The translations under genes were made by a program, and so were the position numbers. 64,000 nucleotides of DNA from the NCBI GenBank assembly GCA_965220935.1, contig OZ244857.1, forward strand, positions 3,047,998-3,111,997, read 5' to 3'. The notes beneath the pieces are model-generated. The model was not told the DNA's origin and did not search any database. It saw only the letters and a program-made list of their open reading frames with translations. This document shows, in pieces, positions 19,561-52,127 of this stretch (position 1 is the stretch's first letter; each line of letters begins with the position of its first letter). This DNA comes from Rhodothermales bacterium (GTDB taxonomy: Bacteria; Bacteroidota; Rhodothermia; Rhodothermales; Bin80).

Positions 19561-20729
19561 TTGTCATTCGTATTGAGATTTCTCCATCTCTGGTATATAT
19601 CCCATACCATTGATTAAAGTCATCCTTATTCTGTGGGATTTGATCTTTATCCCACCCAGAATTGTCCGTCCACTGATCTCCATTGGTGGATGTATATAAC
19701 GCAATAAGACTCTCGTGAATTGCCCTTGCAGAAGTACCAATAGTGATATTGAAATAAAGGGATATCGTATTTAAGTTAGAATCCCGTACTGTATAGATAT
19801 ATTCAGAATGTCTCGTACTAGTTGTTGGTATACCCGAAAGAGTTCTTGTACTGGGATCAAAACTTAATCCTTCAGGCAACTCGGGAGAGATCGTGTATGT
19901 TAATGGTTTTTGTCCACCAATTAACTCAGGCAATTGAATTTCAAAGGACACACCTAAAGAAAGATCCAGAGTTTCAATAGGAGCAGTGAATGTAAATGTT
20001 TCAATTTGGTTAGTATTGATTGCCCATACACCCCGACCATGTGTTCCTAGTATGATCTCATCATCTCGGATTTTCATTTGCCAAATAGCAACGGGAGGCA
20101 GGCCGTCATCAACATAATGCCAAGACTGACCACGATCTGTGGATCGAAATAGACCAATTTCTGTTCCAACCCAGAGTGTATTTGGTGCGTGGGGCATGAC
20201 GATCATATCGTATACAGCTACATCTGGAAACCCATTATTACTTTCGTGATTATTTCCAAATCCTGATAAATCAGTCCAGGTCTCTCCGTAGTCTCAAGTC
20301 TCTATAATCTTTGGATGATTGGGGGCGGAAAAGAGTGCATATGCGGTGGCAGGCTCATGAGGATGGGTAGCCAAACCAGATGCAACATAGCTCAACTTAA
20401 ATTTTTTCAGCTCTGGAATTTGAGAATAAGAGTTTCCACGATCTTTTGATTTATAGCCCTGGCCTGTTTCTGATCCACAAAGAATCCAAATTACCGATGG
20501 ATTTGCCTTAGAAACTTCAATTTTAGTGTAACTTCTGCAGGTCAAATTCAAAGGAGTATGATACCAAGTATCTCCAAAATCTCGAGAGTAATAGACTCCA
20601 TCTGACTTCGTAGTGTATACTTCATTAGGAGACAGATCACTACTTGCCAAATTCGTAAAGAACTGGCCGTTCTCTGTATCCCGGGACATTACTGGTGAAA
20701 ATGAATGATCACCATCAGTACTTTTATAG

Positions 20730-22125
20730 GGGAATTATATACGTGAGTAACCATCTATTAGACGACTACCTGTTGCGTATCCATTTCACGGATCATAGGA
20801 GTTCCTAACGGAAACGCTCCTCCACGTGCAGATGCCCCAATCCCGGAGGCCTGTAATACATTCGCAGATGCATTGATATCTGCGTGATCCGTATGGCCAC
20901 ATGCCATACACTCAAATTTACTTTGTGTCTTACGGTTGACTTTATCTGTATGACCACACTGGTTACAGCGTTGACTGGTATACTTCGGATCAACAAGAAT
21001 CACGTTGCCGAACTTGTAATCGCAATAAGTATTGAACCGCCCCCATCCAGCGTTCTGTATGACGCGGTTCAACCCCGCCTTCGCCCTCACATTGGTTCCA
21101 GGGTTCTCAACCGTGCCCTTAGCGGACTTGGACATGTTCTTGATCTTCAAGTCTTCACGTTTCAACGTATACGCCTTATTGGACAATCTACGGCTATGTT
21201 GATGTGCCGCATTCGTTCTGCAATTCTTCTGTTTTCGCTTCCACTTGTTGATTTTTCGCAAGGATCTACCAGATCCTTTCTGCTGTCGGGCTAACTTTCT
21301 TTGCCACCGACGAATCTTAATCTCCTTATCCGTTAAGTCAGGGATCGGTAACATGCCCTGTTCACCATCCGTTGAGGAATAAGAAATGTTATAGGTATTC
21401 AAGTCAATGCCAATCTCTTTGCCATCGTCCACCTTCTCTGGTAGATTAGTGACTTTGTAAATTACGCTCATCTTCCAGTACCGTCCGTCTTTCTTCACGG
21501 TGACTTCAATCGGCTCACCGTCTGGATAAGGATTACCTCCTTTCCTACGAAACTTCACCCAGCCAATCTTCTGGATATAGACATCATTCCCTCGGATCTT
21601 AAACAATCCTTTGGTCGCCGTAAACGAATTGTGTTGAAACCGATTATGGAACGTAGGATGATCACGTAATCCCTTGAAGAAAGCCTGCCACGCCTCTGCC
21701 TGATGCTTTAAGGTGTTTCGTACAATGTTGGACGAATACCGATTCAACCAAGAAATGGTTGGGCGAAAAGAAGTGTATCTCCTACTTAATGACGGCCAGG
21801 TCAATTCTGGATTATCCTTATGTTCGTCTTTATAGTCCCTGTTGATTTGGTCAAGAAACGTATTCCATACAAACCTACATGCTCCACAAAGACCTGACAA
21901 GAGATGGGCTTTCCACTGCGTGCCGGGTAATAGACGATACTCTATTCCACGATAGGAACAGTTTGAACCCGAAGGGTTAGAAGCCTTTTGAACAGGCATG
22001 ATATCAAGGTTACGTTGGTGTTATGGTAAGCAATAGGGTAGACTGCGTATCTATCCTATTGTGTCTGTTAAACTTTGCCAAAATAGAATGGTTCCATTCT
22101 TTGGGTACTCACGTATATAATTCCC
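20730..22125 (-). mobile_element. IR-bounded 1396-bp element carrying only tnpB, flanked by the 8-bp TSD TTTTATAG
   Basis: The IRs are GGGAATTATATACGTGAGTAACC (20730-20752) and, as revcomp of 22103-22125, GGGAATTATATACGTGAGTACCC. The direct repeat TTTTATAG lies at 20722-20729 and 22126-22133. The host frame is restored on conceptual excision. Confidence 0.8.
20758..21999 (-). CDS. tnpB: TnpB-type RNA-guided endonuclease (OrfB_IS605 / OrfB zinc-ribbon family), apparently intact
   Basis: The RuvC triad candidates are GIDLN, LKREDLKIKNM and HADINASANV. The zinc ribbon is CNQCGHTD...CMACGHTD. The N-terminus YRLLPGTQ...CGACRFVWN is TnpB-like. Confidence 0.85.
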   Translation of the reverse strand: MPVQKASNPSGSNCSYRGIEYRLLPGTQWKAHLLSGLCGACRFVWNTFLDQINRDYKDEHKDNPELTWPSLSRRYTSFRPTISWLNRYSSNIVRNTLKHQAEAWQAFFKGLRDHPTFHNRFQHNSFTATKGLFKIRGNDVYIQKIGWVKFRRKGGNPYPDGEPIEVTVKKDGRYWKMSVIYKVTNLPEKVDDGKEIGIDLNTYNISYSSTDGEQGMLPIPDLTDKEIKIRRWQRKLARQQKGSGRSLRKINKWKRKQKNCRTNAAHQHSRRLSNKAYTLKREDLKIKNMSKSAKGTVENPGTNVRAKAGLNRVIQNAGWGRFNTYCDYKFGNVILVDPKYTSQRCNQCGHTDKVNRKTQSKFECMACGHTDHADINASANVLQASGIGASARGGAFPLGTPMIREMDTQQVVV

Positions 22126-23385
22126 TTTTATAGATTCCAGAGTATTGAGTCGTTCCAAGTACCAGATCAGAATTGGTTTTATGCCAGACTGCATCAAATC
22201 CGTCGCCTCCTATGACATGTTCCCAATAACTATCAGATTCTGGATCATGTTGGGACAGGGAGGTTCCATTATCCTGAGTTCCACCAATATATATAGATTC
22301 GCCAGGCTTCTTTGCGATTCCATAAAATTGAGATGTATTATAGCCAGAATTGTTCCTATCCAATTCATCAAAATATCGTCCCTTGTTTTCAGAAATTGCC
22401 ACCCCTCCGTCATTTGTATTAAATATCCAAAACTTCTCATTGAGAGAGTCTACTACAAATGGTTGAATAACATGGTGATCAACATGGGCTGCTTGATCAA
22501 CATTAACTCCCCAATCTATAATACGTGTGGGCGACCCATTATGCGAGTCTGTAACGATAATACGATTCATGGTTACACCCCCAACGAGCACTATATTCGG
22601 ATCAAAAGGATGAACAGCAAGACAGTTATTATGATATCCTTGTTGTCGCATCCAATTAACAGGCTCGGATGACCGATCAATTGTTAAGATCCAACTTTTC
22701 CCTGCATCATAACTTTTGTAAAGATTCGAAATCCTATCTTGGTATACCGCTGCGTAGGCAATCTGTGGATTCGAAGGTGAAAAAGCTAATTCTGCACGGT
22801 GCACCGAATGTCCAAATGGATCGTGCACTCTCGTCCAATTGAGTCCACCATCAACGGAATAGTATGAGTGATTATGAAATCTACCTGATGCTGCAATTTG
22901 CATATTAAAATTATCAGGCTGCGAAAGTAAGCTAACAATCTCTGCCCGCCATCCACAGCACACACGAGTCCAAGTAGATCCGCCATCTTGCGTACGAAAT
23001 ACCCTCTGTTGGTACCTGCAATTACCACATTTGGGTCACTTGGATCAACTAATAGTCGATATACATCTTGAAAGTTTTTGTTTCCAAACGTTGATTGTAA
23101 ATGCTCCCATCTTACTCCTCGATCGCTGGTTCGAAAAATTCCATAACCAAAACTAGAAAAATCCTCTCCCCAAGCCGACCCGCCTGTGCCAAGATACATT
23201 AGGAATTATATACGTGAGTAACCAAACTTTAGAAAGGGCTTCCCCAGCGCCATAATTAGCTGTTTTTTTATTTTTTCTTGAGCGTTCTCGGGGGTGTGTT
23301 CATGATGATCTTCGCAAAGTCCCCCGGATGCATTGGGATATATCCACTAAGGCTACTCAGATCCTTTGGAGGCCGACCGCGCGGC

Positions 23386-24184
23386 TTACTGGCTTTCTTC
23401 TTGGGGGGTGCAGGTTTCGGTTTGTTGGTTGAGTTCATAATATTTGAATCTCTTGAAATAATTATCTATCTCATCTTGCATATCTATTCCAGCTCTTCGA
23501 AAAGAATTTAACAGGTTTTGGTATGCGTTTTCTCCGCCGAGAAAATTCCAAAATTCCTCAGCGACCTTTATTTCAGCATCCAAATCAATCATTCCAGCCA
23601 TTGTCCACCGTTCATATGGTTTGGGATCATAGGGGTTATAAGGGATGGCAAGGTAAGATTGAACTTTTGCATCTGGATTTTTATATAGAAACCCACTCCA
23701 AAAGAGTTCGCTTAAAATCCTTGAAATTACTCTTATTGGGTTTGACTGTTTTGAGATCAAATAAGTGGAATACTCCATAATGATCTTGGACGGCCAAGTC
23801 AACCTTTACAGGCTTTGATGTGACAATTTCCCCCTGTGTGCAAACCGATCTGATTCTCTCAATCTCCTTGTTTTTATTGGGATTGGCTCCACCAGATAAG
23901 GTATCAATAATTTCTTGGATTACGGATTGTGCCTCTTTCGAAATATGTTCCCCAACAATATATTGCTCTTTGACAAAGGGGAAATGAGGTGTAGCAAGAG
24001 CTTCAGCAGCTGGTTGGAATATTGAAGTTCCAAATGTAGTGTTAAGAGAATGAATAAAAGAAAAAAGTGCCATCCTATCCTCACCTAACAATCTGTGATG
24101 AAATGGTTTATGCTTGGTCTTAGGTTTATATGATGCAAATTTCTTCCGTAAACTCTTCTTAATAATGTCTTCAATGTTTGTCAT
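23386..24184 (-). pseudogene. Type II restriction endonuclease (TdeIII-like by recollection) with one frameshift
   Basis: Track ORFs 23681..24184 and 23386..23802 are two frames of one gene. The join is at ..FKRTLLEWVSI* / ..YKNPDAKVQSYLAIPYNPYDPKPYERW within tctatataaaaatcc (~23690-23705). A D...DLK pattern is present (KVDLAV...LFDLKTVKPN). The gene starts 9 nt after the MTase stop. Confidence 0.55.
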
Positions 24185-24193
24185 GATATCCTA

Positions 24194-25822
24194 TCAACGC
24201 ATATGGAATATAGTCTCTGAATACGCGGCTTTATCCTTTTCTGTTCGATTGAGAACTGGTCGCTTATACTTATTCAGTATTTCCATTCCAGCCAACTTTG
24301 CAATTTCGGGATAAAGTTCGTACTTATCATTTGCGACTAAAAATACGTTGTAATTATCTGAAAAATATTTTTTGCAATTTAGCAAGACAGTAGATATAGA
24401 TTCAACATAGGTTTTTCTGGCCATCATTCCCTGTCCTTGAGAGAGTGGGCCTATTTCTTTTTCGTCACTTCGAGGATAGTTGAAAAGTTCATAGGCGTAT
24501 GCGTGTTGTTCATGATAATCAATTAGGCCAACATAGGGAGGACTTGTAAATATCCCCTGTATTCCCCGGTCATGAATTAAATCTTTGAATTGTTTATGTT
24601 TACTCCCAAGTGCATTTACTATATCAACATTTCTGGAATCTCCTTGTAAGCAATGTTGGTAGGTATGGGTTCTGATTCTATCAAATGAATGTAGGCGTGT
24701 TAAAGTATCTTGACTATATCTTTTCCACCATGATCTCACTGAAAATAGAGGCTTACATATTTTCCCATGTTTTCTGCAATAATACGGAGCAGTCACGGGT
24801 TTCTTTAATGTAGCTAAATCAGAATGCCTTGTAGCACGGCAGGAGCGAACAGTTCGACTCAGAATGACTTCCAGTACTTTTCTGGTATTTAGACAATTAA
24901 CTTTTTCTATCTGAGTAAAAAGAAAATCTATCTCAGACAGAACTGGAGCTAAACACCATTTACATAGATACTCACGTGTATCTGTAAAATTATCATTTTG
25001 AATCTTAACTTGATATTTACTGATCAAGTCATTATAGATAGATAATATTTCCTTTTCTCGATCAACTGAGTATGCTTTTTCATCAATCTTTCCTGTACGA
25101 ATCAGTCTCTTAAATTCTGGCGATGGGTAGTGCAGCTTGTTAAACCCCTTTAAGACATCTGATAGCTCTAATTCAAATTTCACATTGCACTCATCAATTC
25201 CATGCTGAAAAAACAGTGAACTTATTCGATCAATTTCACTGCTCAATTTGACTATGTTATGCTTTGAAGTTTTGACGTTTGCTATGAGAGTGTTAAATAC
25301 TGATACATCAAGTCCAATAGCATGAATCCCCATCTCATTTGCTTGTACAAGTGTTGTACCGCTTCCACAAAATGGATCTAATACAATATCTCCCTCGCAA
25401 AAAAAGACTTCTTTTTTGTACTTATCAGTCTTTTGATCAAGAAAATACTCAACTAATTGTGGAATGAACTTCCCTTTGTAAGGATGAAGTCTATGTACGT
25501 GTTTAGTTGTGTCTTTTTCTCTAAGTGAGTCAAATGAAAGCCTCCAATTCAAATCCTGACCCAACTTGGATTTCCATTCAGATTCCTTGGAATCAACCTG
25601 ATCTTGATAATAATGTGCTAAATCTGCTAAACTTACATAAGTAGCCCTCTCGACAACGTATTTTTTGACACGGCCGTATTGCACCAAGTAAGATATGTTT
25701 GCAGGCGTGATTTCCCTTTTCAGGAATTTTGATGCCCATGAACTTGCTTGTTTAAGATCAACTAAATCTGATTTGTCCTTATTGGATTCAAAAAGAGAAG
25801 GAAGCATAGGATAAGGGTTCAT
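24194..25822 (-). CDS. N6-adenine/N4-cytosine DNA methyltransferase, alpha-like motif order (I ... TRD ... IV)
   Basis: Motif I is VLDPFCGSGTTLVQANEMG and motif IV is IFTSPPYVGLIDY, about 270 aa later. Its ATG overlaps the transposase stop (ATATGA at 25819-25824). Confidence 0.8.
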   Translation of the reverse strand: MNPYPMLPSLFESNKDKSDLVDLKQASSWASKFLKREITPANISYLVQYGRVKKYVVERATYVSLADLAHYYQDQVDSKESEWKSKLGQDLNWRLSFDSLREKDTTKHVHRLHPYKGKFIPQLVEYFLDQKTDKYKKEVFFCEGDIVLDPFCGSGTTLVQANEMGIHAIGLDVSVFNTLIANVKTSKHNIVKLSSEIDRISSLFFQHGIDECNVKFELELSDVLKGFNKLHYPSPEFKRLIRTGKIDEKAYSVDREKEILSIYNDLISKYQVKIQNDNFTDTREYLCKWCLAPVLSEIDFLFTQIEKVNCLNTRKVLEVILSRTVRSCRATRHSDLATLKKPVTAPYYCRKHGKICKPLFSVRSWWKRYSQDTLTRLHSFDRIRTHTYQHCLQGDSRNVDIVNALGSKHKQFKDLIHDRGIQGIFTSPPYVGLIDYHEQHAYAYELFNYPRSDEKEIGPLSQGQGMMARKTYVESISTVLLNCKKYFSDNYNVFLVANDKYELYPEIAKLAGMEILNKYKRPVLNRTEKDKAAYSETIFHMR

Positions 25823-26811
25823 ATTGCCCTTGAACCCCGTTTCGTTTTGCGTGTGAGTTGCTTGTAGGTGATCTCTTTATCAAACAACCCCTTCGCGGTC
25901 AATTCCATCTGCTTGATGGTGTCATATTCTCTGATATTATGCCGACCAGTAAACTCATTCACGTAGCGCTGTAAATGCTTGGGAGACATTCTGTGATACG
26001 TGCCATAGTAGCCACGCTTCAACAACGACCAGAAACTCTCCATGCCGTTGATATGGTCATCTCCGTCTACATATTCTTTAACCGAGTGCTTCACCGTTTT
26101 ATGCGCTGCCCTTTTGAGCGCTTGGTATCCTCTGAAATCATCTGTATAAGTTACAGCATCTTCCTTTGACGTACTGTTTACAAACTCTGCAAGGGTCTCG
26201 CCAGTCGTATCTGTAACTACTTTGGCTTGTACCTGCTTTGTCCCTCTATCCCTTGTTCCTACCACAGTCGTCTTGCCAACAGGCCCTCTACCTGTGCCTT
26301 CTAATTCCTTTCTCTTAGCATTACTCATATTCTTGCGCTTCCCGCCCACATAAGTTTCGTCTATCTCTACTTGGCCAAGAAACATCTTCATATCCTCTCT
26401 CCAGCTCTCACGGATCCGATGCGCCAGATACCAAGAACTCTTCTGCGTTATATTCAGATCACGGTGCATTTTCATACTGGACGCTCCCTTGATCCCTACA
26501 TTGAGAATATAGATTGCCAGTACCCAAATCTGATAATCCATTTTGGTATCTTCCATAACCGTTCCAACTCTCACACTGAAGAATTTACGACATTTTGGGT
26601 TTCTGCACCGGTAGTTCATGGAAGGATGCTTTGCGCCGACCTGAACATTGGTGCAACCACAATGAGGGCAAGTTGGAGTATTACCCCAGCGCTTCTTTGC
26701 AAACCACTTTTCAGCCGACTCACTATCAGGAAACATCTTCAAGAGTTTCACCCAAGAGATACCCGCCCGGTGGTATTGACCTGGTCCTGTCCGTTTCTTT
26801 GATTCTGACAT
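25819..26811 (-). CDS. IS1595-family DDE transposase (zinc-ribbon + ISXO2-like DDE domain), apparently intact
   Basis: It has the N-terminal Zn ribbon CPHCGCTN...CRNPKCRKFFSVRVGT. The catalytic-region motifs are VEIDETYVGG, TYTDDFRGYQAL and HINGMESFWSLLKR. Confidence 0.85.
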   Translation of the reverse strand: MSESKKRTGPGQYHRAGISWVKLLKMFPDSESAEKWFAKKRWGNTPTCPHCGCTNVQVGAKHPSMNYRCRNPKCRKFFSVRVGTVMEDTKMDYQIWVLAIYILNVGIKGASSMKMHRDLNITQKSSWYLAHRIRESWREDMKMFLGQVEIDETYVGGKRKNMSNAKRKELEGTGRGPVGKTTVVGTRDRGTKQVQAKVVTDTTGETLAEFVNSTSKEDAVTYTDDFRGYQALKRAAHKTVKHSVKEYVDGDDHINGMESFWSLLKRGYYGTYHRMSPKHLQRYVNEFTGRHNIREYDTIKQMELTAKGLFDKEITYKQLTRKTKRGSRAI

Positions 26812-26892
26812 TGTAAGTATGTGTTTGAATTAAATCCTTATGCGGACTTGGTTACTCAAAGTTCCAAAAATACATAGAATTTCTAAAATAAA

Positions 26893-27498
26893 TTAGGCGG
26901 GCGATTGCTGAACTTTGTTTTGACGAACTTTCGTTTTATTTGCATTGTAGTCGTCCAATTTTATCCATTTTATTGGAGACAAAAAAGGAGATAAAACTCC
27001 CCACTGCGCAAACATCTTTTGAACCCAATTTACATGCCACACCTCTTCCGTATATCCAAGAGATTCACAAAGCTCATTATGACTTATAATACTGGCAACC
27101 TCTAAGTCTGGTGGAGAATCTTGATCTATTTCCAGCCTTAATGCAAGAAAATGTTCAGCCATAGATTCGTCTTTCTTCTTTGATGTTGTCATTTTCATAT
27201 CTAAACGAATAAAATGCTTTGTCAAGATGTCATGAATTGCTGCCATTTTTCCGGGTTTATAGATCAAGTCCAGTGTAGAAATTAGAATAATTAGTACTGG
27301 AAAAACAAACTTATAAAATTCACCTTCTTGCGAAAATAAATAGCCAGAAATAGCTGTTAATACAATTATTAACAACGAAGTTACTTTAGAAAAAAACTCA
27401 TAATACCTTTGACGTGCACTATTGTATCTGGCTAATCTTTGAACATCAAATTGTACATCATCAAAATCTACATTTGAGCGATCCTTGAGTAGTGTCAT
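26893..27498 (-). CDS. Two-TM membrane protein, SLATT-like (tentative)
   Basis: An N-terminal helix (RLARYNSARQRYYEFF) is followed by two TM helices (VTSLLIIVLTAISGYLF, FVFPVLIILISTLDLIY) and a soluble tail. The layout resembles SLATT 2-TM effector domains from memory. Confidence 0.4.
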   Translation of the reverse strand: MTLLKDRSNVDFDDVQFDVQRLARYNSARQRYYEFFSKVTSLLIIVLTAISGYLFSQEGEFYKFVFPVLIILISTLDLIYKPGKMAAIHDILTKHFIRLDMKMTTSKKKDESMAEHFLALRLEIDQDSPPDLEVASIISHNELCESLGYTEEVWHVNWVQKMFAQWGVLSPFLSPIKWIKLDDYNANKTKVRQNKVQQSPA

Positions 27499-28266
27499 TT
27501 TTTAGGAGGCGGTTTTGGAGCAGGGTTATATTTTTGTCCAGATCCAGATCCTTTCCTTGTTCGAGTAGGGTTGCTTGGCCGATCTGGCTTAGGCTGTTTC
27601 CCCTTCTTGTTATTTTGTTGTTTTGCAATTACCAAACAACTAAATAACAATTAAATCCATTTACCGAAAGTTTGGTTACTCACGTATATAATTCCCATAC
27701 ATTACATCATGATTACTCTCGGCCATGGCTAACTACTCACATTCAAAGAGGGGAAATGATCGGTCTGAGGCTTCCAAGACCTGCCTCCGTCAGTGGTTTT
27801 CCACAATCCACCCGATACAGAACCTGCCCATATGGTCTCAAGCGTTGGGTCATCAGGATCAACAATCAGTGCTCGCGTTCGGCCTCCTACATTTCCAGGA
27901 CCGCGCTCAACCCAATTAAGTGGTTTAGAAGTTTTAGCCTGACTTAATGCCTTATTGAATTCTATGACTTGGTAGCCAATCGGGTACTCATTGCCACCAT
28001 TGATAGGTTGCCGAATAAGACGGTGGTATTCGGCATATTTATCGGGGTTGCCTTCCTCATTATCAAACAATTCATCCTCAGGAAGATGAGGTTTGTTATT
28101 AGATACAGACCAGATGGCAATCATTAGAAGGAAAATCACACCAGCCGCAATTGCGATGTGAATTGAACCCCGATTATTGAACATCACCAAAAACTACCAA
28201 ACAAATCTAATGCGGAAGTTCAAAAACCATCATCCGGCGATAACAATAAAACCACAGACGATGGCG

Positions 28267-28776
28267 TTATCTAATGATAGACTGAAACGATGATGAAACA
28301 GGATTTTCGGAGTGGGAATCAGGACTCTCAGGGCCGTCGTCAGTGGTATGATCCGTCCCACAGAATTGATCAAATGCGCGAACTAAATCAACGGCAATCG
28401 CCTCAGCACTGCGCCCCTCAATATGTCGGCGTTCAATCACATAAACCACATCTCCACCTTTGATGAGTGCCATAAATGGAGATGAAGGAGGAATTCCGAC
28501 TAGATGATGACGTGCAGTAGCCGTTGCATCAAGATCCTGTCCAGCAAATACCGTAACAATCTTGTCTGGCAGAGTCTTATTTTGTATTGCTAACCCAACC
28601 GCTGGCCGAGCCATCCCTGCAGCACATCCGCACACAGAATTAATTACCAAAAGCATGGTCTGATCCGACGACATATTGAATGCATCAGTGACTGCCTCAG
28701 ACGAGCGCAGTTCCTCAACCCCCAACCGCGTGAGTTCCTCGCGCATGGGTGTTACAAGATGTTCTGGGTAAGGCAT
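28267..28776 (-). CDS. BrxA/BrxB-family bacilliredoxin (DUF1094) with a C-terminal extension
   Basis: It contains PEHLVTPMREELT...LLVINSVCGCAAGMARP...TVFAGQD...PSSP. The CGC motif is present. Confidence 0.7.
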   Translation of the reverse strand: MPYPEHLVTPMREELTRLGVEELRSSEAVTDAFNMSSDQTMLLVINSVCGCAAGMARPAVGLAIQNKTLPDKIVTVFAGQDLDATATARHHLVGIPPSSPFMALIKGGDVVYVIERRHIEGRSAEAIAVDLVRAFDQFCGTDHTTDDGPESPDSHSENPVSSSFQSIIR

Positions 28777-44656: not shown

Positions 44657-45235
44657 CTATACCGTAATCTCTCCTTCATACGGACCATTTACATTGTCTT
44701 GATCAGAAGCAATAGTGACCGCTCCGCCAAATCTCATATAACCGTTTATTGTAGGCGCACCTGTGGTAAACGTAGTACTTGACACTCCAGCTGAAAAACT
44801 TGGTGCCGTCCAAGCGTCACTAGAACCGTTGTCGTCGGAAACAGCCCAGTTCGGTGTTAATGCAATTTCCACTGGTGTTCCTGCACGGTTTTCGAGGTTG
44901 GTTGGATATGTAACCGTGACTGCGATTGCACTTACATTTGTCCCATTTACTCTGAGACTACCAATTTTATGATTACCATCGTCTCCAGGGGTATAGCCTG
45001 TTATGTCTGGAGTACCTGCAGAGGCAGTGAACGTTGCGGTCGCCGTTCCAGTGGCTGGCCTATATAATGTGCCAAAGTCCAACGTAGTATTTTGACTAAG
45101 TATACAATTCCCCTGAGTACTACCAATCGTTAATGATACCTCAACATCGTCGTTAGGGGCAAGATCCTGAGCGTGTGCGCTCGTAAGGGCAATCACACAT
45201 GTGAAAAGAAAAATGGAAAGAAATTTTTGAATCAT
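44657..45235 (-). CDS. DUF4402/SCPU-like pilus subunit, duplicated copy B, truncated 8 codons early
   Basis: Its first 46 aa are identical to copy A. It ends ..GPYEGEITV* where copy A continues EVTCTQAS (GAG versus TAG). Confidence 0.55.
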   Translation of the reverse strand: MIQKFLSIFLFTCVIALTSAHAQDLAPNDDVEVSLTIGSTQGNCILSQNTTLDFGTLYRPATGTATATFTASAGTPDITGYTPGDDGNHKIGSLRVNGTNVSAIAVTVTYPTNLENRAGTPVEIALTPNWAVSDDNGSSDAWTAPSFSAGVSSTTFTTGAPTINGYMRFGGAVTIASDQDNVNGPYEGEITV

Positions 45236-51344: not shown

Positions 51345-51590
51345 GCAATAGTGAAAATTTCTTTAACCTCATAAGAGGTGCGATGTTGAGAGCATTTAAC
51401 CGCGATACTAGATTTATCTTACAGGGGACTCGGAAATTAAAGATCTATTTTAGATCTACAACTCAAAGAAATCAAACCTTGTATCAATACACTTGCAGTG
51501 ATTAGGATAACGCCACCGTTGCCGAAACCTCCATATCTGAAGGGTGTATACCATACTAAACGAAACCCAGTATCTCCGAACTTTTTATTT

Positions 51591-51785
51591 GGGAATTATA
51601 TAGATGATTACGCAAACCACCTATCCATTTGACGGGTTCTCGGAGTTCCTAACGGAAACGCTCCTCGCCGTCCATTCAACACCGCTAGTTTGTGCGGTAG
51701 ACATCGCCAATCCCGAACGTAACGCTCCAAATATACGATTTTTTCATAATAAAACAATTCATGCGTGATCATCTCTATAATTCCC
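51591..51785 (-). mobile_element. 195-bp MITE of the GGGAATTATATA family, flanked by the 8-bp TSD TTTTATTT
   Basis: The IRs are GGGAATTATATAGATGATTACGCA (51591-) and, as revcomp ending at 51785, GGGAATTATAGAGATGATCACGCA. The direct repeat TTTTATTT lies at 51583-51590 and 51786-51793. The interior segment 51622-51715 is homologous to the tnpB 3' end (20778-20845). Confidence 0.75.
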
Positions 51786-52127
51786 TTTTATTTCATCAAA
51801 TTAGGTTGCCTGATTAATTTGTATCTGACATTACATTATTCTAGTTTGCGGTATCAAGATAATCCCCAAATAGAATAAAATCGTGGAATGGTTATTTCGT
51901 ATTGATTCAACTTTTTGACTTGACTGATTATCCCGTGCAGATGCATTAGGTTGTTTTTCTAACATCATGAAAGGGATCATTTCTTTCACTCACAAGATTA
52001 ACCACGCATCAAAGGATTGTTTTTCCATTGACGCTCGTTATGCAGAGAAAAAGAAACTTTTTATCTGCCTAAGCATTACACTGGGCTACCTTTAATATAA
52101 CGCGTCAATCAAAACGCTTAATTCAAT

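What the first reader, a model, noticed from the sequence alone, without database searches (positions are those of the whole stretch)
23194..27704. IS1595-family transposon carrying a translationally coupled transposase-methylase-endonuclease operon plus a 2-TM protein
What the sequence shows:
- The 29-31-nt IRs and the perfect TSD ATACATTA delimit 4495 bp.
- On the minus strand an intact IS1595-type transposase ends in ATATGA, overlapping the start of a 542-aa SPPY methyltransferase.
- A restriction-endonuclease gene follows 9 nt after the methyltransferase.
- A 201-aa 2-TM protein gene sits upstream of the transposase, inside the right IR.
- The interior looks clearly more AT-rich than the flanking host gene.

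What is established (from memory): some IS1595 subgroups carry passenger genes.

What I infer:
- This is a compact mobile defence cassette (an R-M system plus a possible membrane effector).
- Its transposase is probably also the engine for the TnpB-only element and the MITE.
Basis: partly seen in the sequence, partly recalled or inferred. Interest (0 to 1): 0.65.

Follow-up and report, generated by a model that had tools for sequence, protein, structure and literature searches.

The report
IS1595 transposon carrying a decayed restriction-modification cassette
This is a real 4.5-kb jumping gene of the IS1595 family in a sponge-associated Rhodothermales genome; it carries a DNA methylase, a restriction enzyme gene broken by an 8-base deletion, and a small membrane protein, and its end sequences also bound a neighbouring TnpB (RNA-guided nuclease) element and a miniature element, so the find is a new example of known kinds rather than a new kind.

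Summary
A perfect 29-nt inverted repeat and an 8-bp duplication (ATACATTA) bound 4495 bp, and deleting the element restores the host reading frame. The interior encodes an intact IS1595 transposase (zinc ribbon plus DDE domain). It overlaps, by ATGA, a 542-aa SPPY methyltransferase. A TdeIII-family endonuclease gene follows 9 nt later, and a 201-aa 2-TM protein lies upstream.

Corrections:
- The endonuclease is a pseudogene. An 8-nt deletion, absent from three intact relatives, splits it into two ORFs, so the cassette is now at most an orphan methylase.
- There are six co-directional ORFs, not four. The two extra are a conserved AT-hook ORF at the left end and a small basic ORF coupled to the 2-TM gene.
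- The 2-TM protein belongs to a family distantly related to SLATT/CBASS 2-TM effectors.

The TnpB element (20730-22125) and the MITE (51591-51785) carry the same repeat tips and 8-bp duplications. At least 18 further TnpB elements with the same ends and site-specific duplications occur in related genomes.

IS1595 elements with passenger genes, R-M units with inverted repeats and 8-bp duplications, and solo TnpBs bounded by DDE-transposon ends are all already described. This is a new member of known kinds, of moderate interest.

The parts
23194..23201 (.). left copy of the 8-bp target-site duplication, ATACATTA
23202..23230 (+). left inverted repeat (IRL), GGAATTATATACGTGAGTAACCAAACTTT; lacks the first G of the family tip GGG
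23268..23438 (-). orf56: small basic protein with an AT-hook-like KPRGRPPK motif. Conserved next to this end in related transposase-bearing elements
23386..23802 (-). C-terminal fragment ORF of the TdeIII-family restriction endonuclease (Pfam profile positions 175-242); the homologous part runs from about 23691 downstream
23691..23692 (-). site of the 8-nt deletion that frameshifts the endonuclease gene (window ...GAGTGGG|TTTCTATA...; intact relatives have 8 more bases here)
23681..24184 (-). N-terminal fragment ORF (167 aa) of the restriction endonuclease (Pfam RE_TdeIII positions 7-173, E 1e-49)
24194..25822 (-). 542-aa type II DNA methyltransferase. Motif I (DPFCGSGTT) lies at residue 149 and SPPY at 427. 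Probably N4-cytosine specific
   Evidence: (PADLOC MTase_II, 703 bits)
25819..26811 (-). 330-aa IS1595-family transposase: zinc ribbon plus DDE domain (D151, D224, E258, K265; E286/R290). Its stop overlaps the methyltransferase start (ATGA)
26847..26862 (-). internal IR-like motif ACTTTGAGTAACCAAG upstream of the transposase start; also found upstream of the closest transposase relative (L087)
26893..27498 (-). 201-aa 2-TM protein; member of a widespread family distantly related to SLATT/CBASS 2-TM effectors
27495..27650 (-). orf51: small basic Pro/Lys-rich ORF whose stop overlaps the 2-TM start (ATGA). Homologous ORFs precede the 2-TM gene in L083-L085; a P/K-rich ORF of similar character and position precedes it in L081 (no tblastn match)
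27667..27696 (-). right inverted repeat (IRR); read inward it is GGGAATTATATACGTGAGTAACCAAACTTT
27697..27704 (.). right copy of the target-site duplication, ATACATTA
20730..22125 (-). 1396-bp non-autonomous element. It holds a TnpB gene (20758-21999) between IS1595-type IRs (20730-20752 and 22103-22125), with TSD TTTTATAG (20722-20729 and 22126-22133). It sits in the same host gene
51591..51785 (.). 195-bp MITE with the same IR tip and TSD TTTTATTT (51583-51590 and 51786-51793). A deletion derivative of a TnpB element that keeps the 3'-terminal tnpB hairpin region

Best explanation
The region is a 4495-bp 'transporter IS' of the IS1595 family, with ISNwi1-like ends, inserted into a BNR/sortilin-type host gene.

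What is shown:
- The 330-aa transposase has an N-terminal zinc ribbon and a DDE domain whose conserved residues are all intact.
- The IRs are a perfect 29-nt pair.
- The insertion made an 8-bp duplication.

What is inferred:
- The transposase binds the IRs.
- All six ORFs run in one direction from the right IR: small basic ORF, 2-TM protein, transposase, methyltransferase, endonuclease, AT-hook ORF. The stop/start overlaps (orf51 with the 2-TM gene, transposase with the methyltransferase) suggest co-expression.

The cargo:
- The main passenger is a captured type II R-M module: a probable N4-cytosine methyltransferase plus a TdeIII-family endonuclease. It is intact in relatives.
- Here the endonuclease has been killed by an 8-nt deletion. 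The element now carries at most an orphan methylase and no longer restricts DNA.
- The 2-TM protein is a remote relative of SLATT-type membrane effectors. It has no recognisable sensor partner in the element, and its role is unknown.

The wider family:
- The same transposase clade and IRs carry other DNA methyltransferases in related genomes.
- The same IRs bound non-autonomous elements whose only gene is TnpB, and MITEs derived from those. This transposase, or a close paralogue, is therefore the likely trans-acting driver of the neighbouring TnpB element. It is a less certain driver of the MITE.
For: - Boundaries: IR and TSD; restored host frame.
- Transposase: domain hits; conserved D151, D224, E258, K265, E286 and R290 in an 18-sequence alignment.
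- Methyltransferase: full-length match to PADLOC MTase_II (703 bits). A 58%-identical relative is named cytosine-N4-specific by UniRef.
- Endonuclease: split Pfam RE_TdeIII match. The 8-nt deletion is seen against L079, L086 and L080. Intact 250-aa endonucleases lie 9 nt after the 78%-identical methylase in L079 and 13 nt after the 73%-identical methylase in L086.
- Recurrence of the cassette: L079 also has an IS1595 transposase C-terminus overlapping the methylase start by ATGA.
- Foreign origin of the cargo: 72 of 80 metagenomic methylase homologues have the endonuclease alongside and 0 of 80 have the transposase. Cargo GC is 34-38% against 45.8% for the transposase.
- Cargo swapping: L002, L017 and L010 share the IRs and have 8-bp TSDs but carry different methyltransferases.
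- Trans-mobilisation: the TnpB element and the MITE share IR tips and have 8-bp TSDs. Of 27 complete TnpB elements (one of them the window's own), 18 have perfect TSDs that differ between sites.
- 2-TM protein: 611 homologues. Four of 70 hit Pfam SLATT_1 (best 2e-05). Twenty-four of 70 hit a PADLOC 2TM effector model (best 6e-07), and some hit RT-associated SLATT models.
Against: - No activity was tested. Only one copy of this exact transposase is on record in the source assembly.
- The left tip lacks one G of the family consensus.
- The promoter scan was no better than shuffled sequence, so the operon and coupling model rests on gene spacing alone.
- The window's own 2-TM protein reaches no SLATT or PADLOC model at E <= 0.01, and its high-confidence model has no PDB neighbour.
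- Methylase specificity is unproven.
- The assembly has about 12x coverage judging by the contig name, and the raw reads could not be inspected.
Confidence: 0.85

Rival explanations
1. The R-M module is still functional. Under this reading the apparent endonuclease frameshift is an assembly artefact, or it is bypassed by programmed frameshifting, and the element is a working mobile defence cassette.
For: - Both endonuclease fragments keep strong, contiguous Pfam matches with no other damage.
- The contig name suggests only about 12x coverage.
- The break lies next to short runs (GGG, TTT, AAAAA).
Against: - The difference from three independent intact homologues is a clean 8-nt gap, not a 1-nt homopolymer miscall.
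- The neighbouring host gene carries two frameshifts, one of them in a non-homopolymer context, plus an in-frame TGA. Real mutational decay therefore occurs at this locus.
- Related elements also carry split methylase genes, and many TnpB copies are degraded.
- No slippery-site or stimulatory structure was looked for or seen.
Confidence: 0.07
2. The element is an immobile fossil. It inserted long ago, its transposase no longer works, and it plays no current part in moving the TnpB element or the MITE. Those would be moved by other IS1595 copies elsewhere in the genome.
For: - It is a single copy.
- The left tip lacks a G.
- The cargo endonuclease is decayed.
- The host gene has had time to gather two frameshifts and a nonsense codon.
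- The MITE's IRs differ from this element's at about 6 of 23 positions.
Against: - The transposase ORF is full length with every conserved catalytic and zinc-binding residue.
- The IRs are 29 of 29 identical and the TSD is intact.
- One IR of the TnpB element is identical to this element's IRR over 23 nt.
Confidence: 0.3
3. The cargo did not travel with the transposase. Under this reading a simple IS1595 element landed next to resident host R-M and 2-TM genes, or those genes were inserted into an already resident IS.
For: - The cargo differs in GC from the transposase.
- An IR-like motif lies just upstream of the transposase (26847-26862). That could mark an older boundary predating the 2-TM module.
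Against: - The perfect IRs and the TSD enclose all six ORFs, and the host ORF is restored only when the whole 4495 bp is removed.
- The transposase-methylase ATGA junction followed by M-R is conserved in L079, although the proteins have diverged to 59-79% identity.
- No second IR pair or internal TSD is present.
- The 2-TM module lies next to a transposase of the same clade in a sponge metagenome contig.
Confidence: 0.05

Closest known systems
IS1595 family, ISNwi1 subgroup with passenger genes ('transporter IS', tIS; ISfinder; Siguier, Gagnevin & Chandler 2009). Subgroup criteria are recalled from memory
   Same: - Zinc ribbon plus DDE_Tnp_IS1595 transposase.
- 8-bp TSD.
- IR tip GGGAATTAT, which fits the recalled consensus ggnnatTAT.
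- DDEK + ER4 signature (D151, D224, E258, K265; E286-R290).
- The 4495-bp length falls in the recalled range for passenger-bearing members (about 1.75-4.75 kb).
- Passenger genes lie downstream of the transposase.
   Different: - The passenger set (type II R-M, SLATT-like 2-TM, AT-hook ORF) is not one I could find described.
- One passenger module lies upstream of the transposase.
- The ISfinder criteria could not be checked against a held paper.
Transposon-like R-M units with terminal IRs and 8-bp TSD (Furuta, Abe & Kobayashi 2010, PMC2853133), such as the N. gonorrhoeae unit with a COG3677 transposase-like gene
   Same: R-M genes lie inside a compact unit bounded by perfect short IRs (26 of 26 there, 29 of 29 here), with an 8-bp duplication and a transposase-like gene.
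   Different: - There the R-M is type IIG plus an S subunit, and the transposase-like gene is thought to be inactive.
- Here the transposase is intact, the R-M is a TdeIII-type M+R pair, and the endonuclease is the part that is broken.
TdeIII-family type II R-M systems (Pfam PF09520 endonuclease with an N6_N4_Mtase partner)
   Same: The M-then-R order and 9-nt spacing match the closest relative, L079. Seventy-two of 80 homologous methylase loci carry the endonuclease.
   Different: - This copy is inside an IS, and its endonuclease is frameshifted.
- The recognition sequence was not determined. GGNCC for TdeIII is from memory only.
Solo TnpB genes bounded by the inverted repeats of DDE transposons and mobilised in trans (Altae-Tran et al. 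2023, PMC10691335; review PMC13565253 names ISL2, IS630 and IS1031)
   Same: The neighbouring 1.4-kb element has TnpB as its only gene, IRs identical to those of a transposase-bearing element, TSDs, and the TnpB 3' end within 30 nt of one end.
   Different: The partner here is an IS1595-family transposase. That family is not named in either paper's text, and the supplementary tables were not available.
SLATT / CBASS 2-TM effector proteins
   Same: - Two TM helices after a conserved basic N-terminal segment, and a size of about 200 aa.
- Family members hit Pfam SLATT_1 and SLATT_4, and PADLOC 2TM-effector and RT-associated SLATT models.
   Different: - The window protein itself does not reach those models.
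- No cyclase, SLOG or reverse-transcriptase partner lies in the element. The partner is instead a small basic ORF.

Membership tests
IS1595 family insertion sequence | Transposase with the DDE_Tnp_IS1595 (ISXO2-like) catalytic domain | tested here: met
   Pfam PF12762 at 8.3e-40, covering 3-153 of 153. NCBIfam NF033547 scores 172 bits against a cut-off of 75.
IS1595 family insertion sequence | N-terminal zinc-ribbon DNA-binding domain | tested here: met
   PF12760 scores 29.8 bits against a cut-off of 25.4. C48, C51, C69 and C74 are invariant among 18 relatives.
IS1595 family insertion sequence | Terminal inverted repeats and an 8-bp target-site duplication | tested here: met
   29-nt perfect IR. 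8-bp TSD. The empty site restores the host frame.
ISNwi1 subgroup (criteria recalled from ISfinder, not verified in a held paper) | IR tip ggnnatTAT and the DDEK + ER4 signature | tested here: met
   IRR tip is GGGAATTAT. D151, D224, E258 and K265, plus E286 with R290 four residues on. The criteria themselves are from memory (searches found no source).
Transporter IS (tIS) | Passenger genes unrelated to transposition lie inside the IRs together with the transposase | tested here: met
   The methylase, endonuclease fragments and 2-TM gene all lie within 23202-27696.
Type II restriction-modification system | Methyltransferase with AdoMet-binding and catalytic motifs | tested here: met
   DPFCGSGTT at residue 149 and SPPY at 427. 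PADLOC MTase_II at 5.9e-212, full length.
Type II restriction-modification system | Intact cognate restriction endonuclease gene | tested here: not met
   The Pfam match is split over two ORFs. There is an 8-nt deletion relative to L079, L086 and L080.
Type II restriction-modification system | Demonstrated methylation and cleavage of a defined sequence | not testable with these tools
   No kinetic data, REBASE or enzyme assay was available.
SLATT 2-TM effector | Match of the protein to a SLATT or 2-TM effector profile | tested here: inconclusive
   The window protein has no hit at E <= 0.01. Among 70 family members, 4 hit SLATT_1 (2e-05), 24 hit PADLOC 2TM effector PDLC00712 (6e-07), and several hit RTasSLATT.
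SLATT 2-TM effector | Genomic association with a nucleotide-signalling or RT sensor partner | tested here: not met
   No such gene lies in the element.
TnpB / OMEGA element (neighbouring 20730-22125) | TnpB protein with RuvC motifs and a zinc finger | tested here: met
   NCBIfam guided_TnpB scores 209 bits against a cut-off of 100. Motifs: GIDLN at residue 197, KREDLK at 280, HADINAS at 372, and CxxC pairs at 345 and 364.
TnpB / OMEGA element (neighbouring 20730-22125) | IS200/IS605- or IS607-type ends (no TIR, no TSD) with a TnpA partner | tested here: not met
   The element has 23-nt IS1595-type IRs and an 8-bp TSD, and no TnpA.
TnpB / OMEGA element (neighbouring 20730-22125) | omegaRNA overlapping the tnpB 3' end | tested here: inconclusive
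   A hairpin at 20798-20820 shows compensatory changes in 4 pairs across 16 copies and is kept in the MITEs. There is no Rfam match, and the RNA ends are unknown.
MITE (51591-51785) | Short, non-coding, terminal IRs, TSD, derived from a longer element | tested here: met
   195 bp, IR tips, TSD TTTTATTT. Its left 84 nt align to the TnpB element's tnpB-3' end. Homologous MITEs occur in another genome.

The most novel reading that the evidence does not exclude
This IS1595 clade has taken up a TnpB-omegaRNA module as cargo. The 4.5-kb element, or its paralogues, would be the autonomous driver of a large family of TnpB-only elements and of omegaRNA-retaining MITEs. Because the tnpB stop codon lies only 5-28 nt from the IR tip, there are two possibilities:
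- The IR forms the 3' end of the omegaRNA scaffold and the guide is read from the flanking DNA, starting with the TSD. That would give a DDE (TIR/TSD) transposon RNA-guided homing in bacteria.
- The fixed IR sequence itself serves as the guide, which would direct TnpB to the ends of sibling elements.

The oriented target pattern G|NAANNTAN might then reflect a TAM-like constraint.
Probability: 0.3. Interest if true: 0.75.

Novelty: new member of a known kind. Interest (0 to 1): 0.45.

Why it matters
On its own the element is one more passenger-carrying IS1595 member. It shows how a compact DDE element can pick up an R-M module and carry it into new sites, and how that module then decays to an orphan methylase. 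This fits the repeated pairing of this transposase clade with solitary DNA methyltransferases.

The wider value is the set of three elements in one window that share ends: an autonomous element, a TnpB-only element and a MITE. Dozens of TnpB copies with site-specific 8-bp duplications occur in related genomes. Together they offer a natural system for asking what an RNA-guided TnpB nuclease does for a transposon that leaves inverted repeats and duplications behind. Recent reviews treat that question as open for prokaryotes.

Tried and rejected
- Rfam scan of 20000-28500 gave only a sub-threshold CRISPR-DR26 hit at E 0.33 and no omegaRNA family.
- The sigma-70 promoter and terminator scan of the element was no better than shuffles.
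- Foldseek of the high-confidence 2-TM model against the PDB gave no match at E < 0.8. The afdb50 library was unavailable.
- phmmer of the methylase against PDB sequences matched only the 30-residue AdoMet motif, so specificity could not be assigned.
- tblastn of the transposase against plasmids gave only hits below 45% identity, annotated generically as IS1595 family, which did not help with the subgroup.
- The FEMS review by DOI and an 'ISNwi1' text search did not yield the ISfinder subgroup table. The PNAS supplements were not held.
- A search for the second IR around the 2-TM homologue in L081 and L082 failed because the contigs end there. Whether that module lies inside an IS there is unknown.
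- A predicted pairing between CGUGA upstream and UCACG in the IR is conserved in 16 TnpB elements but shows no covariation. By my own inspection of the MITE sequences it is not kept there, so it is not claimed.
- I considered that the frameshift might be a homopolymer error. I rejected this after the 8-nt gap was seen.
- The hits GGGAATTGTATA at 45101 and 45867 lie on the same strand, with no partner in inverted orientation. I do not count them as element ends.
- Six viral contigs carry the IR core, but none encodes a homologue of any of the element's proteins.

Full report
**Observation**

The repeat finder reports one outstanding inverted pair in 22500-28500. The arms are 23202-23230 and 27667-27695, 29 nt long and 100% complementary. 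The 29-mer occurs only at these two places in the window and never in 100 shuffles.

The bases outside the arms are ATACATTA on both sides, at 23194-23201 and 27697-27704. The right end carries one extra tip base (C at 27696).

Deleting the element and one duplication copy joins the flanks into a continuous reading frame...LAMAESNHDVMYLGTGGSAWGEDF.... The insertion is therefore real and interrupted a host gene.

**Gene content**

All ORFs of note lie on the minus strand.

- **Transposase, 25819-26811.** It matches Pfam DDE_Tnp_IS1595 (8e-40, full profile) and Zn_ribbon_IS1595, and NCBIfam transpos_IS1595 (172 bits against a cut-off of 75). In an alignment with 17 relatives, the zinc-binding cysteines and D151, D224, E258, K265, E286 and R290 are invariant or nearly so, and all are present here.
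- **Methyltransferase, 24194-25822.** Its ATG overlaps the transposase stop (ATATGA). The protein is 542 aa, with DPFCGSGTT at residue 149 and SPPY at 427. It gives a full-length 703-bit match to a PADLOC type II methyltransferase model. A 58%-identical relative is named cytosine-N4-specific by UniRef.
- **Endonuclease.** Nine bases after the methyltransferase stop an ORF begins that matches Pfam RE_TdeIII. The match is split: 23681-24184 covers profile positions 7-173, and a second, overlapping ORF 23386-23802 covers 175-242.
- **2-TM protein, 26893-27498.** It is 201 aa with two hydrophobic segments.
One is 23268-23438 (56 aa, basic, with a KPRGRPPK AT-hook-like motif). The other is 27495-27650 (51 aa, Pro/Lys-rich), whose stop overlaps the 2-TM start.

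**The endonuclease is broken**

The closest methyltransferase relative (78% identity) lies on a 2.8-kb Logan contig, L079. It is followed 9 nt later by an intact 250-aa endonuclease. A 73%-identical methylase (L086) and a 62%-identical one (L080) also have uninterrupted endonuclease reading frames alongside; L086's runs off the contig end.

A nucleotide alignment of all four across the break shows a clean 8-nt gap in the window copy. The window reads GAGTGGG--------TTTCTATATAAAAATCC where L079 reads GAATGGGTTGCCATCTTGTTATTGAAAAACCC (the site is 23691/23692). An 8-nt gap is not the signature of a homopolymer miscall.

The host gene around the element is itself decayed. Once both inserted elements are removed it still has two frameshifts, one in a non-homopolymer context, and an in-frame TGA at 20294-20296. 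I therefore treat the endonuclease as a true pseudogene. I could not inspect reads, and the contig name (ctg52282_12x_l) suggests about 12x coverage.

**Is the cargo foreign, and does it travel with the transposase?**

- The passengers are AT-rich: methylase 36.0%, endonuclease 37.7% and 2-TM 34.3% GC. The transposase is 45.8% and the window 44.9%.
- Among 80 metagenomic loci encoding 53-59%-identical methylases, 72 have a homologous endonuclease alongside and none has an IS1595 transposase. The M-R pair is thus an ordinary, widespread R-M module that this IS captured.
- The capture is not unique to the window. L079 begins with the C-terminus of an IS1595 transposase (59% identity over 71 aa) whose stop overlaps the methylase ATG in the same ATGA arrangement.

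**The family**

Scanning one genome per species for the IR core GGAATTATATACGTGAGTA returned 76 loci. Most are in Rhodothermales MAG chromosomes. Exact matches also occur in Latescibacterota, Terriglobia, Opitutales, Dehalococcoidia, Anaerolineales, Bryobacteraceae and two alphaproteobacterial MAGs. Homologues come from sponge metagenomes, which suggests a sponge-associated community.

Ten loci encode a transposase homologue and 49 encode a TnpB homologue. Three elements have complete ends, 8-bp TSDs and a different cargo:

| Locus | Length | Content |
|---|---|---|
| L002 | 2731 bp | transposase, a split DPPF-type methylase, an orf56 homologue |
| L017 | 2622 bp | transposase, a methylase-HNH fusion, an orf56 homologue |
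| L010 | 2943 bp | no transposase; a split NPPF-type methylase |

orf56 homologues sit at the IR-proximal end, or directly after the transposase, in six loci. The clade's basic unit therefore seems to be transposase plus a small AT-hook protein, with varied DNA methyltransferases slotted between them.

**The 2-TM protein**

- Word-indexed search found only two close homologues. One lies next to a transposase of the same clade in sponge metagenome contigs, preceded by a similar small basic ORF and followed by a glycine-zipper peptide. The other is frameshifted and not near a transposase.
- An exhaustive HMMER search found 611 relatives.
- Of 70 aligned members, 4 hit Pfam SLATT_1 (best 2e-05), 24 hit a PADLOC CBASS-type 2TM effector model (best 6e-07), and several hit RT-associated SLATT models. 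The window protein itself reaches none of them.
- Its AlphaFold model is confident (pLDDT 93.5) but has no PDB neighbour.

'Possible membrane effector' is thus a fair but weakly supported label. No sensor partner is present in the element.

**The TnpB element and the MITE**

The IR tip GGGAATTATATA recurs at 20730 and 22125, and at 51591 and 51785.

The first pair bounds 1396 bp that hold only a 413-aa TnpB gene (NCBIfam guided_TnpB, 209 bits; RuvC and zinc-finger motifs present). It has TSD TTTTATAG. Its removal restores the same host ORF. One of its IRs equals the 4.5-kb element's IRR over 23 nt, and the other matches at 20 of 23.

The second pair bounds a 195-bp MITE with TSD TTTTATTT. Its left 84 nt align to the tnpB 3' end of the TnpB element.

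Across the fetched loci plus the window, 27 complete TnpB elements of 1.27-1.48 kb have these IRs, and 18 have perfect 8-bp duplications that differ from site to site. That is the signature of DDE transposition, not of IS200/IS605 or IS607. It is less certain for the MITE, whose IRs differ from the 4.5-kb element's at about 6 of 23 positions.

**omegaRNA clues**

- The tnpB stop lies 5-28 nt from the IR tip in the copies whose reading frame is intact to the 3' end.
- A hairpin inside the 3' coding end (window 20798-20820) shows compensatory substitutions at four pairs across 16 copies.
- The hairpin is retained in the window MITE and in homologous MITEs of another genome.
- Whether the guide lies beyond the IR tip or is the IR itself cannot be settled here.
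- In the orientation of the genes, the 5' flank shows G at position -1 in 13 of 17 sites, and the duplication follows NAANNTAN asymmetrically. The 4.5-kb element fits this pattern (G|TAATGTAT). The sample is small and I did not test it further.

**Comparison with what is known**

- Passenger-carrying IS1595 members (tIS) are an established category, from memory of ISfinder and Siguier et al. 2009. That paper is cited by Furuta et al. but is not held here.
- Furuta et al. 2010 described R-M units bounded by short perfect IRs with 8-bp duplications, including one with a COG3677 transposase-like gene.
- Altae-Tran et al. 2023 reported six DDE-associated TnpB branches with inverted terminal repeats, and solo TnpBs with the same ends that are probably mobilised in trans.
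- A 2026 review names ISL2, IS630 and IS1031 as the DDE partners. IS1595 is not named in either text, and no held paper links IS1595 with TnpB in this way. The supplementary tables were not available.

**Verdict**

- The main correction is that the endonuclease is dead.
- The element is a new member of a known kind.
- The shared-end TnpB family is the more interesting lead.

Noticed in passing
window 20730-22125: A TnpB gene is the sole cargo of a 1396-bp element bounded by IS1595-type IRs with an 8-bp TSD (TTTTATAG). More than 20 similar elements with site-specific TSDs occur in related Rhodothermales genomes, and one occurs in a Dehalococcoidia MAG (L054).
   Followed up: partly
window 51591-51785; L042 7179-7370; L061 5670-5848: A 180-195-bp MITE family is conserved between genomes. 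It keeps about 130 nt of the tnpB 3' end, including the covarying hairpin, so these may be omegaRNA-only derivatives.
   Followed up: partly
window 20200-28190 (host gene fragments 27729-28190, 22109-23199, 20294-20689): One BNR/sortilin-like host gene was hit by both the 4.5-kb element and the TnpB element. It also carries two frameshifts (near 27721-27740 and 22990-23010) and an in-frame TGA (20294-20296). It is a multiply decayed pseudogene.
   Followed up: yes
flanks of 18 TnpB elements (loci L005-L075) and window 27697-27712: Target sites show an orientation-dependent pattern relative to gene direction. G precedes the duplication in 13 of 17 sites, and the duplication follows NAANNTAN. 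A symmetric transposase preference would not predict this, so a TAM-like constraint is one possibility.
   Followed up: partly
window 27607-27650: A 44-nt near-perfect palindrome (22-nt arms, 86% complementary, no spacer) lies just inside the right IR and overlaps the start of orf51. Its function is unknown.
   Followed up: no
window 26847-26862; L087 1-16: The motif ACTTTGAGTAACCAAG upstream of the transposase start resembles the inner half of the IR and is conserved upstream of the closest transposase relative. It could be a subterminal transposase-binding site or an old boundary.
   Followed up: no
L044 1710-4318: A 2609-bp element has the same IRs and a perfect 8-bp TSD. It holds a divergent TnpB (34% identity) whose 3' end appears to run into a nested insertion carrying what looks, by eye, like an IS630-family transposase.
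   Followed up: partly
L017 1125-2300; L010 2489-5262; L002 2814-4242: Sibling elements carry other DNA methyltransferases: a methylase-HNH fusion, a split NPPF-type enzyme in an element with no transposase, and a split DPPF-type enzyme. DNA methylases seem to be the favoured cargo of this transposase clade.
   Followed up: partly
L015, L018, L020, L026, L054, L057, L063, L069, L073: Exact 19-nt IR-core matches occur in chromosome-scale MAGs of at least seven other phyla or classes, which suggests recent cross-phylum spread within one community.
   Followed up: no
L092 4485-5597 (IMG/VR contig): A pair of inverted IR cores 1.1 kb apart lies on a viral contig with no homologue of the window's proteins. 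The cargo is unidentified.
   Followed up: partly
L081 861-1052: In a sponge metagenome contig, a 63-aa glycine-zipper membrane peptide follows the 2-TM homologue. No counterpart exists in the window element.
   Followed up: no
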